A stretch of DNA of 64,000 nucleotides from a virus (Duplodnaviria; Heunggongvirae; Uroviricota; Caudoviricetes), in IMG/VR virus record IMGVR_UViG_3300012983_000032, positions 29,793-93,792 of that record; one strand, given 5' to 3'. Below the pieces are notes generated by a model. That model was not told where the DNA came from, made no database searches, and was given only the letters and a program-made list of their open reading frames with translations. A program made the position numbers and the translations under genes. Positions 6,772 through 37,780 of the stretch are shown here, piece by piece; position 1 is the stretch's first letter; every line of letters starts with the position of its first letter.

Positions 6772-7944
6772 TTAGGCAATAGTGCTGGATACATACTGTA
6801 TCATCCAATCTTTATCAAAATAAGACCTTGCCTTATTATCAACAATTATGAGTAATGGCATACCATTAGGGCCTTCCATTTCTTGCAGTCTACTAATAAA
6901 TACGTCATATTCCTTATCTGTTAAGCCAATCCTTTCTTTAGCTTGTTTAAGATTAGATAATATAGTAAATGACTTATCTTCACTTTTAGTAGAGTTTTTG
7001 AATATTTCTTCAATAAAATAAACCAACTTAGAAATAACAGGTTTAGAAGTTATACCAAAATGATATTTTGCAGTACCATTTATTTCAGTAGTAGACATTT
7101 CCTTATCTTTTAACTCTAATGGTCTATTCGTCGTTTCAATAGTAACTTTATTATCTTGGTTATTTGAGTCTTTTCTTTTTATAACTGTTGGATTATTAGT
7201 TTCTGCATAAATTCTTTCCAATGTAGCAGAAAGTTCATTAACCTTGGTATTTAAGTCCTCATTTGTTTTAACAAGAGAATTAAACTGTTCCGACTTTCTC
7301 TCTACTTCAATATGTTCTGTCTTTAATTGACTATTTTCAGTTGTCAAAGTATTAATATTGTTAGTAAGCCGAGAAATATCGTCCCTTAACTGAGAAATTA
7401 CCTTTTCTTTAGCCTCCAACTCAGAAGTTAAATGTTTTTGTTCGTCCCATGTATTTTTAAGGGCAGTTTGTTTCTCAGTTTCTATCTTTGCAATATCCTC
7501 ATTATATTTTCTTAAAGTTATATACTGAGAAAGGTCTACTTTTTCTTCATTATTTTTATCATAAAGATGCTTTTCAAGTTCTTCTACCTGTGAAACCAAG
7601 TTAGAATTTTCTTTATCTTTATCTGAGACTGATGCAGAAAGTTCTTCTATTCTAGAAACCAAGAGTTTAACTGTCCCCAAAGTCTTTTCTCTAAAAGAAT
7701 TTATTTTTTCTTCATTATCCTTTAAGATAGAGTCCTTTTCTGACTTCAAAGTTTCATATTCTTGAGTCAATTCATTAAACTTTTCTGTTAAATTATCAAA
7801 CTCAATTGACTTTTTATTAAAACTTTGAAGAATAGTTTCTTTTGCCTCTTCAAGAGAAGAAACTCTTTCCTTATTCTGTATTTTCTGAGACTCAATTATC
7901 TTTTGAATTTCGTAAATAAGTGCTATTACTTCTTCCATACTCAT
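6772..7944 (-). CDS. Coiled-coil protein
   Basis: Long heptad-like, Glu/Lys-rich sequence. Confidence 0.35.
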   Translation of the reverse strand: MSMEEVIALIYEIQKIIESQKIQNKERVSSLEEAKETILQSFNKKSIEFDNLTEKFNELTQEYETLKSEKDSILKDNEEKINSFREKTLGTVKLLVSRIEELSASVSDKDKENSNLVSQVEELEKHLYDKNNEEKVDLSQYITLRKYNEDIAKIETEKQTALKNTWDEQKHLTSELEAKEKVISQLRDDISRLTNNINTLTTENSQLKTEHIEVERKSEQFNSLVKTNEDLNTKVNELSATLERIYAETNNPTVIKRKDSNNQDNKVTIETTNRPLELKDKEMSTTEINGTAKYHFGITSKPVISKLVYFIEEIFKNSTKSEDKSFTILSNLKQAKERIGLTDKEYDVFISRLQEMEGPNGMPLLIIVDNKARSYFDKDWMIQYVSSTIA

Positions 7945-30410: not shown

Positions 30411-31160
30411 TTACCCGAAATTTTCAGGATTTTCGTCTGCGTTTTCAATTCTTTTTACTGCAATATCAAAATACTCTTTATCTTTCTCTATTCCAATAAA
30501 ATCTCTATTTAATTTCTTGCAAGCAACTCCAGTAGTTCCTGACCCCATACAGTTATCTAAAACTATATCACCCTCATTAGAAAATGTTTTTATCAACTCC
30601 ATAATTAAAGCTAAAGGTTTTTGTGTGGGATGTAGATTACTTGTTAAAATATCTCTCTTAAATTTCCATAATTGTGTTGGGTACCTTAATCCTTTGTCTA
30701 CATATTCTGTAGGCTTTTTATCAAAATCATCGTCAACCAATTTTCCTAATTTACCATTTTTAATTTTATTAACTCTAGGTGGGCCGTTATAGAGAGTCAT
30801 TTGTGGATTATAAGTACATTGTTTCTTATAAAATAAAGATATTACTTCAATATCTTTACCTGCTCTACGTTTTACTTGAAATATATTAGTAACTCGTTCT
30901 TTCTGCCAATAAATATCATACTTGAAATATTTTAGATTTGAGAGTCTGAGAAAAGAAGAAAAAGGTTCTTGCCCAAATAAAATAATTGGAGTAGTGTCTT
31001 TAATAATTCTATTATACTCTTTCCACAATTCTTCAAAAGGTATAATAATATCCCAAGGGCATTTAGTTGTGCCATACGGCAAATCACATATTATTAAATC
31101 GACTGACTTATCAGGTATCAGTTTCATTGCTTGGAGACAGTCGTCATTATAGAATTCCAT
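30411..31160 (-). CDS. DNA methyltransferase, N6-adenine/N4-cytosine beta class
   Basis: N-terminal IICDLPYG (motif IV), HPTQKP, and C-terminal NCMGSGTTGVA (motif I). Confidence 0.8.
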   Translation of the reverse strand: MEFYNDDCLQAMKLIPDKSVDLIICDLPYGTTKCPWDIIIPFEELWKEYNRIIKDTTPIILFGQEPFSSFLRLSNLKYFKYDIYWQKERVTNIFQVKRRAGKDIEVISLFYKKQCTYNPQMTLYNGPPRVNKIKNGKLGKLVDDDFDKKPTEYVDKGLRYPTQLWKFKRDILTSNLHPTQKPLALIMELIKTFSNEGDIVLDNCMGSGTTGVACKKLNRDFIGIEKDKEYFDIAVKRIENADENPENFG

Positions 31161-31164
31161 TTTA

Positions 31165-31174
31165 ATATATTAAC
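31165..31174 (-). promoter_or_regulatory. TGTTAATATA box 4 nt before ATG 31160 of the beta-class MTase (leaderless configuration)
   Basis: motif. Confidence 0.4.
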
Positions 31175-31209
31175 AATACTTAAATTTACTAGTTTTTTGT
31201 GTAGTGGAT

Positions 31210-31248
31210 TTAAAAAAATAAAAAACCCTACACTTCAAAGTGTAGGGT
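31210..31248 (-). terminator. Rho-independent terminator ending the SPFH transcript and the candidate 3' UTR RNA
   Basis: ccctacactttgaagtgtaggg then TTTTTTATTTTTTT on the minus strand. Confidence 0.75.
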
Positions 31249-31436
31249 TAAAGTCACTTAGGATTATAATGTCTGTTAGTCGGCACCACCGAGGTGGGCT
31301 AGTTCTTATGATTTTCAGACATTTTATCGGTCAAGCCTGGATTACGCATAGTTACCCGACCTTTTATATACCAGAGTCTCTGTCTTACCGTCCTATAGCC
31401 GAACTCACTTGTAACTTTTTATTCTTTATTGTAAAG
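31249..31436 (-). ncRNA. Candidate structured small RNA (3' UTR element) between the SPFH gene stop and its terminator
   Basis: About 190 nt of non-coding sequence, markedly GC-richer than its surroundings (cggcaccaccgaggtgggctag; ggtcaagcctgg...cccgacc), with several possible stems. Bounded by terminator 31226-31247. Confidence 0.3.
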
Positions 31437-32537
31437 TTATCTGTTACTAGTATTAGTAGCTTCACGAATAAGACTATCAATACCAAGTACTTTAAGGTCA
31501 TTTGAAGTAACAACTTTAGGAAGTGCAATATCATTCAATGCCTTAGCACGAATCTTAATAGCTTCTGCCTCTGCCTCACCTTTAAGTCTAAGGTTAGTAA
31601 TTTCTTGTTCTCGCTGTTTACGAGCAAGTTCAATACTAGATGTCTGTGCAAGAATCTTCTGAGTTTCTACTGTCTTACGTGCTTCTGCCTTAGCATTTTC
31701 TGTTTCAGCAAGGATTTTCTGCTTTTCCATCTTCTGAAGTTCAATTTCATTTTCCTTCTTCTGTTTTTCAGCCTCGAAACGTTTCTTTTCAGTTTCTACC
31801 TGTGCCGCCAACTTAGCCTGCTCGTCCATCTGATTCTGCAAAGTTGCATCGTCGGGGATAAGACCGTTCCAAACAGCAAGGTTATCAATAGTAATACCAA
31901 ACTCTTTTGACCATTCTTGAATACGTTCAATTGCAGCGGAAACAATTTCATCACGGTTAGGAAGTACGTCTTTATATTCATACTTATGGAATTCCTTAGA
32001 CAACTCTGCTGCAACAATATTTCTAAACTGATTATCCGCTACCATTTCTGGTGAACTCAACATCTTTGAACGTGTGTCTGGAACTGGAATATTTGCCGGG
32101 AACTTAGAAAGAAATCTTCCAGAGTCCTGAGGTGTTACACGAATTGCATATTTCATAGGAACAGTAAATCCCTGACTACCTTTTGTTTCTACCTTAATTT
32201 CGTCGTCCCAAGTACCTGTAATTGGAGAGTTAGAAACTGCTACTACCTTAAGTTTTGGGATATATTTTCCTGTACCTCTCATACGTCCAGTCTTTACCCA
32301 CTTGTGTGGAATCTGTACCAACTTTTCATTTAAAAGATGTGTTTTGTAGTAATCTTCCGAAGTAAGAGTTGCTTGAGCGTTTTCTTCACTTTCTGCAAAA
32401 AGGTTAATTACAAATGCTGTTTCATTTGTATCAATCTGTACATACTCTGGTTTATCGTATGGACGAATAAACATACAAGAAGTACACATTACTGACATTA
32501 CTGTCAGCATAGCAAACAATCCAAAAATCTTTTTCAT
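31437..32537 (-). CDS. SPFH/band-7 (stomatin/prohibitin-like) lipoprotein
   Basis: Signal peptide with a Cys lipobox (LTVMSVMCTSC), and an SPFH-like core with an Ala/Glu/Lys-rich coiled-coil tail. Confidence 0.6.
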   Translation of the reverse strand: MKKIFGLFAMLTVMSVMCTSCMFIRPYDKPEYVQIDTNETAFVINLFAESEENAQATLTSEDYYKTHLLNEKLVQIPHKWVKTGRMRGTGKYIPKLKVVAVSNSPITGTWDDEIKVETKGSQGFTVPMKYAIRVTPQDSGRFLSKFPANIPVPDTRSKMLSSPEMVADNQFRNIVAAELSKEFHKYEYKDVLPNRDEIVSAAIERIQEWSKEFGITIDNLAVWNGLIPDDATLQNQMDEQAKLAAQVETEKKRFEAEKQKKENEIELQKMEKQKILAETENAKAEARKTVETQKILAQTSSIELARKQREQEITNLRLKGEAEAEAIKIRAKALNDIALPKVVTSNDLKVLGIDSLIREATNTSNR

Positions 32538-37325: not shown

Positions 37326-37339
37326 ATTAACTGTTTTTT

Positions 37340-37348
37340 GTTAATATA
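37340..37348 (+). promoter_or_regulatory. TTGTTAATATATAG promoter directly after the truncated polymerase ORF
   Basis: motif; drives the small ORFs at 37407-38023. Confidence 0.45.
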
Positions 37349-37406
37349 TAGTCGCCCCTAAGATATTTAATATCTTAAATCTATGGGCATAAGGAGGTAA
37401 TATAAA

Positions 37407-37496
37407 TGGCGTGTCGTATATCAAAAGAATATAAACTGTCTCAAGGTAAAGAAGAATACCTTATGTTAACAGCAGATTTCGGCTCGTTACAATGAC
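37407..37496 (+). CDS. Possible 29-aa ORF behind a strong promoter and RBS
   Basis: TTGTTAATATATAG box at 37338-37351, RBS AAGGAGG, then ATG. Sequence MACRISKEYKLSQGKEEYLMLTADFGSLQ. Confidence 0.2.
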
Positions 37497-37780
37497 AAAT
37501 GCGTCTTACTACACAAGACACAACTCTTAATAAGAGTACTCATGGTAACTGTGACCCAGGTCTTTATGAAATCTACTCTGAAGAATCAGTTTGTCCCGAC
37601 GCCCATTCGTAGATAAGTCTGCGACTGGTAAAAATACTTTCGTTGCTTCTATTAACGGGCAAGTATATGACTTGGAACTTGAAGACGGTTCTTCTGTAAA
37701 GTTATATCAGGAAATGTATGCAAAAATTAAACGTAATGGTACAGAAATGACTGTTAAAGTTTTGGACTTAAAAGAGGGGG

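What the first reader, a model, noticed from the sequence alone, without database searches (positions are those of the whole stretch)
31249..31436. GC-rich, about 190-nt untranslated segment between the SPFH gene stop and its terminator: candidate structured sRNA
Almost everywhere else, stop codons are followed within about 10-40 nt by a terminator or the next gene. Here about 190 nt of clearly GC-enriched sequence, with several self-complementary stretches, separates the SPFH stop (31437) from a strong terminator (31226-31247). The opposite-strand ORF in the track is an artefact of the GC skew. This could be a 3' UTR-derived sRNA, a riboregulator, or a remnant of an RNA gene. I checked for tRNA features and found none.
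Basis: seen in the sequence. Interest (0 to 1): 0.55.

Follow-up and report, generated by a model that had tools for sequence, protein, structure and literature searches.

The report
Conserved noncoding insert after SPFH gene
A 167-base, GC-rich, non-coding block sits between a phage membrane-protein (SPFH) gene and its terminator and is kept nearly unchanged in one sub-clade of uncultured huge gut phages, so it probably does something as RNA, but nothing shows that it folds into a special structure or belongs to a known RNA family.

Summary
The segment is real. A 167-nt core (window 31251-31417, minus strand, 43% GC against 28% for intergenic DNA) lies between the SPFH stop codon (31437-31439) and a strong intrinsic terminator (31224-31249).

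Ten distinct copies were recovered from metagenomic relatives whose SPFH protein is at least 90% identical. Relatives at 79-86% identity have only stop codon, then terminator.

The block is non-coding. No reading frame stays open across the copies, indels are 1-4 nt, and the opposite-strand ORF has no homologues. Its pairwise diversity is about 0.41 of that at SPFH third codon positions. Conservation starts and stops at a 7-bp inverted repeat (AAGUUAC/GURACUU), while the flanks are rearranged.

The "structured" part is not supported:
- Fold energies equal those of shuffled sequences in all ten copies (z from -1.0 to +0.6).
- There is no significant covariation.
- There is no Rfam, tRNA or tmRNA match.
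- There is no second copy in the window or in public collections.

Best reading (0.4): a clade-specific, sequence-constrained RNA tail of the SPFH transcript, that is, a candidate 3'UTR-derived sRNA. Its function is untested. Interest is modest.

The parts
31437..32537 (-). SPFH/Band-7 gene with a lipoprotein-like N-terminus. The element lies in its 3' untranslated tail.
   Evidence: ORF. Pfam Band_7 at E 2.3e-7. 133 homologues.
31418..31436 (-). AT-rich leader between the stop codon and the conserved block. It varies in sequence and length among copies: about 6 nt in L014 and L020, and 43 nt with a 12-bp hairpin in L019.
   Evidence: Alignments.
31251..31417 (-). Conserved 167-nt GC-rich non-coding core, the element itself.
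   Evidence: The covariance model matches it at 205 bits and matches the other copies at 151-214 bits. Identity between clades is 85-96% (93-96% without the most divergent copy, L019), where SPFH third codon positions are 74-88% identical.
31411..31417 (-). 5' arm AAGUUAC of the terminal inverted repeat, the predicted closing helix P1. It marks the 5' edge of conservation.
   Evidence: Only one-sided compatible changes are seen (C to U in L011). In L019 an extra C here and an extra G on the 3' arm would extend the helix to 8 bp.
31251..31257 (-). 3' arm GUGACUU of the inverted repeat (GUAACUU in most copies). It marks the 3' edge of conservation, 1 nt before the terminator stem.
31283..31299 (-). 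Hairpin GCCC(ACCUCGGU)GGUGC with a variable tip. Other clades are 3-4 nt shorter (GCCCUAGUGGUGC, GCCCUCUGUGGUGC) but can still form the base of the stem.
   Evidence: Alignments. The pairing itself was judged by inspection.
31372..31382 (-). Small variable hairpin CAGA-GAC-UCUG. Other clades carry CGG-AUUC-CUG, GGA-CAC-UCC or CAGA-UAC-UCUG.
31214..31249 (-). Intrinsic terminator with an 11-bp stem, a 4-nt loop and a U-tract. The stem is invariant and the loop varies. Its 3' half is deleted in L019.
30411..31160 (-). Downstream N6/N4 DNA methyltransferase gene. In the L001/L013/L014/L016 clade a 94-98-aa membrane ORF lies between the terminator and this gene; in L019 the same kind of ORF follows the element, but the contig ends before any methylase gene could be seen.
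   Evidence: Pfam N6_N4_Mtase at E 1.5e-33. Gene maps.

Best explanation
The element is a clade-specific non-coding module whose primary sequence is under constraint. It is transcribed as the last ~190 nt of the SPFH operon mRNA and ends at the intrinsic terminator.

Most likely it acts as RNA through conserved sequence rather than through a compact fold. Either it is released from the mRNA as a roughly 200-nt RNA that shares the terminator (a 3'UTR-derived sRNA), or it serves as a binding platform for a protein or another RNA.

Shown:
- It is non-coding.
- It has sharp boundaries at a 7-bp inverted repeat.
- Its diversity is lower than that of synonymous-like sites and of its flanks.
- High GC is maintained in an AT-rich genome.
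- It has the same orientation as all surrounding genes.

Inferred:
- That it is transcribed.
- That it is processed, with the upstream AU-rich leader as a plausible cleavage site.
- That it acts in trans.
For: 1. The same block sits at the same place in 10 distinct copies from relatives with SPFH at least 90% identical: L001, L010-L014, L016/L017, L018, L019 and the partial L020.
2. Summed pairwise divergence of the element is 0.41 of that at SPFH third codon positions and 1.9 times that at positions 1+2.
3. The leader, the terminator loop and the trailer vary freely. L014 against L001 shows about 60% identity (read off the alignment) in the last 45 nt of SPFH and an unrelated leader, yet 161 of 162 identical bases in the element.
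4. GC is 41-45% in every copy, against 28% for intergenic DNA.
5. It is not coding. No frame is open in all copies and indels are 1-4 nt. Six-frame pieces gave no significant match in Pfam or PHROGs. The antisense ORF has no homologue family.
6. The terminator and all neighbouring genes are on the minus strand.
7. Precedent exists. Candidate non-coding RNAs derived from 5'UTRs and 3'UTRs are reported in virulent and jumbo Pseudomonas phages (PMC10914365).
8. A fold z near 0 fits a sequence-acting sRNA better than a riboswitch or ribozyme.
Against: - No expression data exist and no 5' end is defined.
- The constraint estimate is confounded by mosaicism. L019 against the L001 clade is as diverged in the element (0.875-0.882) as at third codon positions (0.85-0.88).
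- No outlier target was found in the 64-kb window by duplex scanning. The host is unknown.
- The element is dispensable in close relatives: L007-L009 at 86% and L005/L006 at 79% lack it.
- In L019 the terminator that would define the sRNA's 3' end is destroyed.
Confidence: 0.4

Rival explanations
1. Cis-acting leader or attenuator. The block would be a ligand- or protein-sensing domain that controls read-through of the adjacent terminator into the downstream methyltransferase or 95-aa ORF module, in a riboswitch-like layout.
For: - The order is always element, 1 nt (a single U), terminator, then the next gene.
- Hairpin tips vary in length while the bases of the stems are kept.
- In L019 the terminator is lost and the element sits directly in front of the 95-aa ORF.
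- Relatives without the element have a plain terminator there.
Against: - The fold is no more stable than shuffles in all copies, and there is no significant covariation.
- I found no anti-terminator. The best complementarity to the terminator's 5' half is 4-5 bp, judged by inspection.
- No Rfam riboswitch or leader scores above noise.
- The gene downstream is not the same in all clades.
- No promoter shared by all copies lies upstream. The TTTACA-16-TACAAG match is absent in L014 and L019.
Confidence: 0.15
2. DNA-level element. The block would be a protein-binding, recombination or insertion module bounded by 7-8-bp terminal inverted repeats (AAAGTTAC...GTAACTTT), such as the footprint of a small mobile cassette. 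Its conservation would then reflect DNA function or recent horizontal spread.
For: - There is presence/absence polymorphism among close relatives.
- The terminal inverted repeats are perfect.
- Recombination breakpoints lie right at its edges in L014 and L019.
- Sequence is conserved without any structural signal.
- A GC content foreign to the surrounding intergenic DNA suggests import.
Against: - It is single-copy. There is no second copy in the window or in any fetched locus.
- The JGI metagenome scan found only the same locus. IMG/VR, GTDB genomes, phage and plasmid collections gave nothing.
- There is no target-site duplication (inspection).
- No transposase, integrase or endonuclease gene is next to it in the window clade.
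Confidence: 0.2
3. Non-functional relic of a decayed gene fragment or RNA gene. It would have been carried along since the ancestor of the clade with SPFH at least 90% identical, and its low divergence would come from mosaic recombination and small sample size.
For: - It is dispensable in relatives.
- Its GC of 0.42-0.45 is within the range of GC-rich coding stretches of this genome, for example 0.44-0.45 inside SPFH.
- The L019 copy is as diverged as third codon positions.
- It has neither structure nor a family match.
- The same junction holds tRNA arrays and other RNA genes in more distant relatives, so decay products are plausible here.
Against: - Overall diversity is 0.41 of that at third codon positions, while the immediately adjacent leader and trailer are scrambled.
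- High GC is retained in all copies despite an AT-biased genome.
- The conservation edges are sharp.
- No protein family matches significantly in any frame.
- It shows no similarity to the RNA regions of L002 and L003.
Confidence: 0.2

Closest known systems
3'UTR-derived small RNAs that share the mRNA's intrinsic terminator. Examples from my own knowledge are enterobacterial CpxQ, SroC and DapZ. Candidate phage RNAs derived from 5'UTRs and 3'UTRs, including one in phiKZ, are reported in PMC10914365.
   Same: It lies between a stop codon and that mRNA's Rho-independent terminator on the coding strand. It is conserved more than the neutral-like flanks. It is about 190-200 nt including the terminator. 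It has no strong global fold.
   Different: No transcript, processing site, chaperone or target is known. There is no sequence similarity to any described sRNA. It comes from an uncultured huge-phage lineage whose host is unknown.
Transcription-terminating riboswitches or attenuators (aptamer followed by a terminator).
   Same: A conserved GC-rich block closed by a terminal helix lies directly upstream of an intrinsic terminator and a downstream gene. Peripheral hairpins vary in length.
   Different: No anti-terminator was found. There is no covariation and no excess fold stability. It matches no Rfam riboswitch. It follows a stop codon rather than a recognisable promoter.
Orphan GC-rich intergenic motifs found by screens of GC-rich intergenic regions in AT-rich genomes (Breaker-lab style screens; from my own knowledge).
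   Same: It was picked out by the same signature: an unusually long and GC-rich intergenic region in an AT-rich genome.
   Different: Motifs accepted from such screens rest on covariation across many diverse representatives. Here there are ten near-identical copies (85-99%) and no covariation.
Miniature inverted-repeat elements or small non-autonomous insertions.
   Same: It has 7-8-bp terminal inverted repeats, presence/absence polymorphism, and a size of about 170 bp.
   Different: It is single-copy, has no target-site duplication, and always sits at the same locus.

Membership tests
Any Rfam 15 family (4227 models) | Covariance-model score at or above the family's gathering threshold | tested here: not met
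   There were 0 hits in the whole window at gathering thresholds. At E up to 10 on 31100-31600, the only hits were terminator-driven noise of at most 25.8 bits, against thresholds of 38-141.
tRNA / tmRNA / tRNA-like | Cloverleaf or tmRNA architecture detectable by ARAGORN or Rfam RF00005 | tested here: not met
   ARAGORN found 0 genes in the window. There was no tRNA hit at E up to 10. The same tools readily found the tRNA arrays in L002-L004.
Transcription-terminating riboswitch / attenuator | Intrinsic terminator immediately downstream of the sensing domain | tested here: met
   The terminator stem starts 1 nt after the 3' arm of the closing helix. This holds in 8 of the 9 distinct copies where that region is on the contig.
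Transcription-terminating riboswitch / attenuator | Mutually exclusive anti-terminator pairing with the terminator's 5' half | tested here: not met
   By inspection of the sequence, the best complementarity within the element to AACCCUACACU is 4-5 bp (AAGUG/CACUU, UAGG/CCUA), and it is not conserved among copies.
Transcription-terminating riboswitch / attenuator | Conserved folded aptamer supported by covariation or excess stability | tested here: not met
   Fold z-scores run from -1.03 to +0.56 in ten copies. No consensus-fold pair changes on both sides. The covariation candidates are within chance expectation.
3'UTR-derived sRNA | Located between the stop codon and the mRNA's own intrinsic terminator on the sense strand | tested here: met
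3'UTR-derived sRNA | Sequence conserved above the neutral-like flanks | tested here: met
   Diversity is 0.41 of that at third codon positions. The leader and trailer are scrambled. Caveat: the loci are mosaic.
3'UTR-derived sRNA | Discrete stable transcript with a defined 5' end, from processing or an internal promoter | not testable with these tools
   No expression data are available. A TTTACA-16-TACAAG promoter-like match, found by inspection of the leader alignment, is absent in L014 and L019.
3'UTR-derived sRNA | Base-pairing target(s) | tested here: inconclusive
   An RNAduplex scan of both strands of the window found no outlier other than the element's own antisense. The host genome is unknown.
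MITE / small mobile insertion | Terminal inverted repeats | tested here: met
   AAGTTAC...GTAACTT, 7-8 bp.
MITE / small mobile insertion | Multiple dispersed copies and a target-site duplication | tested here: not met
   There is one copy per genome fragment. The only metagenome hits are at the same locus. No flanking duplication is visible.
Retron non-coding RNA (msr-msd) | Adjacent reverse-transcriptase gene | tested here: not met
   The neighbours are SPFH, a DNA methylase and small ORFs with no Pfam match.
Protein-coding gene (either strand) | Reading frame open and conserved in relatives, with homologues | tested here: not met
   No frame is open in all ten copies. The 124-aa antisense ORF has a single hit, apparently from the same locus, among 5.8 billion proteins. 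There is no significant Pfam or PHROGs match.

The most novel reading that the evidence does not exclude
The block is the founding member of an undescribed class of functional phage RNA. It could be a ligand- or protein-responsive regulator of the downstream DNA-methylase module, or an RNA decoy aimed at a host system. In that case it would be restricted so far to one clade of uncultured huge gut/rumen phages, and its structure would be invisible here only because the ten available copies are too similar.
Probability: 0.1. Interest if true: 0.55.

Novelty: new member of a known kind. Interest (0 to 1): 0.3.

Why it matters
If it is functional, it would be one more phage-encoded regulatory RNA, from a lineage of very large uncultured phages in which almost nothing is annotated. 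Contigs reach 460 kb and the DNA polymerase I (PolA) is only 24% identical to that of any isolate.

It would also mark the SPFH 3' junction as a site where these phages swap RNA cargo. In different relatives that site holds tRNA arrays, another unknown RNA motif, or this block.

As it stands it is a modest lead: constrained, non-coding and unclassified, but without evidence of structure, expression or a target.

Tried and rejected
- Rfam at gathering thresholds and at E up to 10: nothing.
- ARAGORN: nothing.
- blastn of the element against phage and plasmid collections: nothing.
- Exact and gapped pattern scans of IMG/VR (five patterns) and GTDB genomes (two patterns): nothing (46, 55).
- The JGI metagenome scan gave only two contigs, both from the same locus.
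- A peptide-pattern search for SPFH relatives in IMG/VR found none.
- The covariance model R1 found no paralogue in the window or in 18 of the 20 fetched loci (L004, L009 and L012 were not scanned; L004 duplicates L003, L009 duplicates L007 and L012 was in the model). That set includes the tRNA/RNA regions of L002 and L003.
- Fold stability against shuffles shows no signal. The -2.25 z-score comes from the terminator.
- RNAalifold and pair counting found only one-sided compatible changes.
- An exhaustive search for compensatory column pairs gave UAGGA/UCCUA (5-bp context) and AUAA/UUAU (4-bp context). Both are driven by L019 alone. About 1-3 such pairs are expected by chance among the 18 candidates, so I rejected them as evidence.
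- Variable columns are not significantly depleted in paired positions (odds ratio 0.59, p = 0.16).
- Target search by RNAduplex over the window found no outlier.
- Coding hypotheses were rejected.
- A template/variable repeat pair of a diversity-generating retroelement, or any other repeat: rejected, because there is no second copy.
- An internal sigma-70 promoter: not conserved across copies.

Full report
**What is there**

On the minus strand, the 366-aa SPFH/Band-7 gene (31437-32537; Pfam Band_7, E 2.3e-7) ends in TAA at 31439-31437. After it come, in order:
- a 19-nt AT-rich leader;
- a 167-nt GC-rich block at 31417-31251;
- one base;
- an intrinsic terminator with an 11-bp stem at 31249-31224 followed by TTTTATTTTT.

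About 60 nt further on, an N6/N4 DNA methyltransferase gene starts at 31160.

The block has 43.7% GC, against 28% for intergenic and 32% for coding DNA in this window. Its 150-nt GC peak is at the 99.3rd percentile and is the highest of any non-coding gap. Long gaps as such are not rare here: 17 are at least 100 nt and the median is 58 nt.

**Known families**

- Rfam finds nothing in the whole window at gathering thresholds.
- A permissive scan of 31100-31600 returns only weak matches driven by the terminator.
- ARAGORN finds no tRNA or tmRNA.
- The phage itself is far from anything cultured. Its PolA is 24% identical to the best isolate, and no phage record matches the region at DNA level beyond the methylase gene.

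**Relatives**

The SPFH protein has 133 homologues in metagenomic protein collections, on contigs up to 460 kb. I fetched 20 loci.

Every locus whose SPFH is at least 90% identical to the window's carries the block at the same place. These are L010-L012, L001, L013, L014, L016/L017, L018, L019 and the partial L020.

More distant loci lack it:
- L007-L009 (86%) and L005/L006 (79%) have a stop codon followed within 30-50 nt by an unrelated terminator.
- L015 (81%) and L002 (84%) have a palindromic promoter-like region there.
- L002 and L003/L004 (76%) carry other non-coding RNA-like sequence and tRNA arrays at this junction.

The block is therefore a clade-specific insert at a junction that is generally variable.

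**It is non-coding**

The copies differ by indels of 1, 1 and 3-4 nt. No reading frame on either strand is open in all ten copies. Six-frame pieces gave no significant match in Pfam or PHROGs. The 124-aa opposite-strand ORF has a single database hit, a 78-aa call on a 1-kb contig, apparently from the same locus.

**It is constrained**

Between clades the block is 85-96% identical, while SPFH third codon positions are 74-88% identical. Summed over all pairs, its divergence is 0.41 of that at third positions and 1.9 times that at positions 1+2.

Conservation starts exactly at AAGTTAC and ends at GTRACTT. The leader, the terminator loop and the trailer vary or are replaced. The sharpest contrast is L014 against L001: the last 45 nt of SPFH are about 60% identical and the leaders are unrelated, yet the block is 161/162 identical. 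GC stays at 41-45% in all copies.

Two caveats apply:
- These loci are mosaic.
- L019's block is as diverged from the L001 clade as third codon positions are.

The constraint estimate is therefore suggestive, not rigorous.

**Structure is not supported**

- The core's minimum free energy is indistinguishable from dinucleotide shuffles: z = -0.58, and -1.03 to +0.56 across the ten copies. The opposite strand is no better. The -2.25 obtained with flanks comes from the terminator.
- RNAalifold proposes a multibranch fold closed by the 7-bp helix AAGUUAC/GURACUU. All variation in its 40 pairs is one-sided (A-U to G-U, G-C to G-U), and no pair changes on both sides. The more divergent L019 copy breaks three helix-end pairs.
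- An exhaustive scan for compensatory column pairs found two with helix context: UAGGA/UCCUA, where A-U becomes G-C, and AUAA/UUAU. Both rest on L019 alone. Among the 18 candidate pairs, about 1-3 such cases are expected by chance.
- Variable columns are not significantly depleted in paired positions (p = 0.16).

A few features are mildly suggestive. Two hairpin tips change length while the bases of their stems are kept. L019 has a matched C/G insertion that would lengthen the closing helix. These remain anecdotes.

**Uniqueness**

There is no second copy in the window or in the fetched loci, by BLAST or by covariance model (model R1 skipped only L004, L009 and L012, of which L004 and L009 duplicate scanned loci and L012 was in the model). 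IMG/VR, GTDB representative genomes and PLSDB gave no hits. The JGI metagenome scan returned only two contigs of the same locus. This argues against an active mobile element and against a host-derived sequence, within the limits of exact-pattern scans.

**How it most likely works**

The block lies on the coding strand of a long minus-strand gene run, after a stop codon and before that transcript's terminator, so it is almost certainly transcribed as the 3' tail of the SPFH mRNA. This is an inference; no expression data exist.

Conserved sequence without a compact fold fits best with an RNA that acts through its primary sequence. That could be a 3'UTR-derived sRNA sharing the terminator, or a binding platform. 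Candidate phage non-coding RNAs derived from UTRs have precedents (PMC10914365). I give this reading 0.4.

The three rivals:
- **Riboswitch or attenuator (0.15).** The element-terminator-gene layout and the L019 rearrangement favour it. The absence of an anti-terminator, of fold stability and of covariation argue against it.
- **DNA-level module or insertion scar with inverted-repeat ends (0.2).**
- **Non-functional relic whose apparent constraint reflects mosaicism (0.2).**

A duplex scan of the window found no target.

**Verdict**

This is a real, discrete, non-coding, clade-restricted block that is probably constrained. "Candidate sRNA in the SPFH 3' UTR" is fair. "Structured" is not shown. 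It belongs to no known family. Interest is modest (0.3) and would rise only with expression data or with covariation from more diverse copies.

Noticed in passing
L003:4118-4200, L004:2443-2525 and L002:4314-4410 (not in the window): A different, unclassified RNA-like motif lies directly downstream of the SPFH gene in more distant relatives. Its sequence is CUYGGUGAGAAACCRAG-CGUGAA...ACGCGGARARCUGCMCC...GCUGAUGG. Two sequences alone show 3 base pairs with compensatory changes. There is no Rfam hit at E up to 0.5. It is absent from the window and, as an exact pattern, from IMG/VR. It is a better candidate for a structured RNA than the window's element.
   Followed up: partly
L003:4519-5300 and 6918-7094; L004 (same genes); L002:5325-6714: tRNA arrays (Ile-TAT, Arg-TCT, Glu-CTC, Gln-TTG, two Leu, Phe, Asn and others) occupy the junction downstream of SPFH in relatives, whereas the 64-kb window has no tRNA at all. 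The SPFH 3' junction appears to be a hot spot for swapping RNA cargo.
   Followed up: partly
L014:3541-3601 and L019:2136-2196, compared with window 31437-31497: The last ~45 nt of the SPFH gene are about 60% identical (read off the alignment) between the two groups of copies, while the element next to it is 88-99% identical. This indicates a recombination breakpoint at the stop codon.
   Followed up: partly
L019:2197-2455: In this copy a 12-bp hairpin without a U-tract (UACAUUGCCGAA...UUCGGCAAUGUA) precedes the element. The 3' half of the downstream terminator is deleted, so the element sits about 35 nt upstream of the 95-aa ORF.
   Followed up: partly
L007:2083-2160; L002:4100-4200; L015:2977-3076: Relatives without the element carry extended -10-like sequences right after the SPFH stop codon: TGATATAAT in L007, and TGTTATAAT in L002. 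In L002 and L015 this region lies inside long palindromes with repeated ATCACTTG boxes, which look like a promoter with operators.
   Followed up: no
window 37326-37590: A 265-nt gap follows the PolA gene, with a 100-nt GC peak of 0.41 and only a 37-aa ORF. It has no Rfam hit and was not examined further.
   Followed up: no
whole window; L001: The window belongs to an uncultured huge-phage lineage, with a 460,660-bp contig from ENA sample ERZ28436052. The record labels (MUNK18, XIEF21, ANDE20) look to me like animal-gut or rumen surveys; I did not check this. Its PolA is only 24% identical to that of any isolated phage, and IMG/VR lacks close relatives.
   Followed up: partly
window 30411-31160, compared with L001:4332-4619, L013, L014, L016 and L019: Gene content after the terminator differs between clades. 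In the window and L010-L012 the methylase gene follows directly. In the other clade a 94-98-aa membrane ORF is inserted before it. In L007 that ORF lies after the methylase gene.
   Followed up: no
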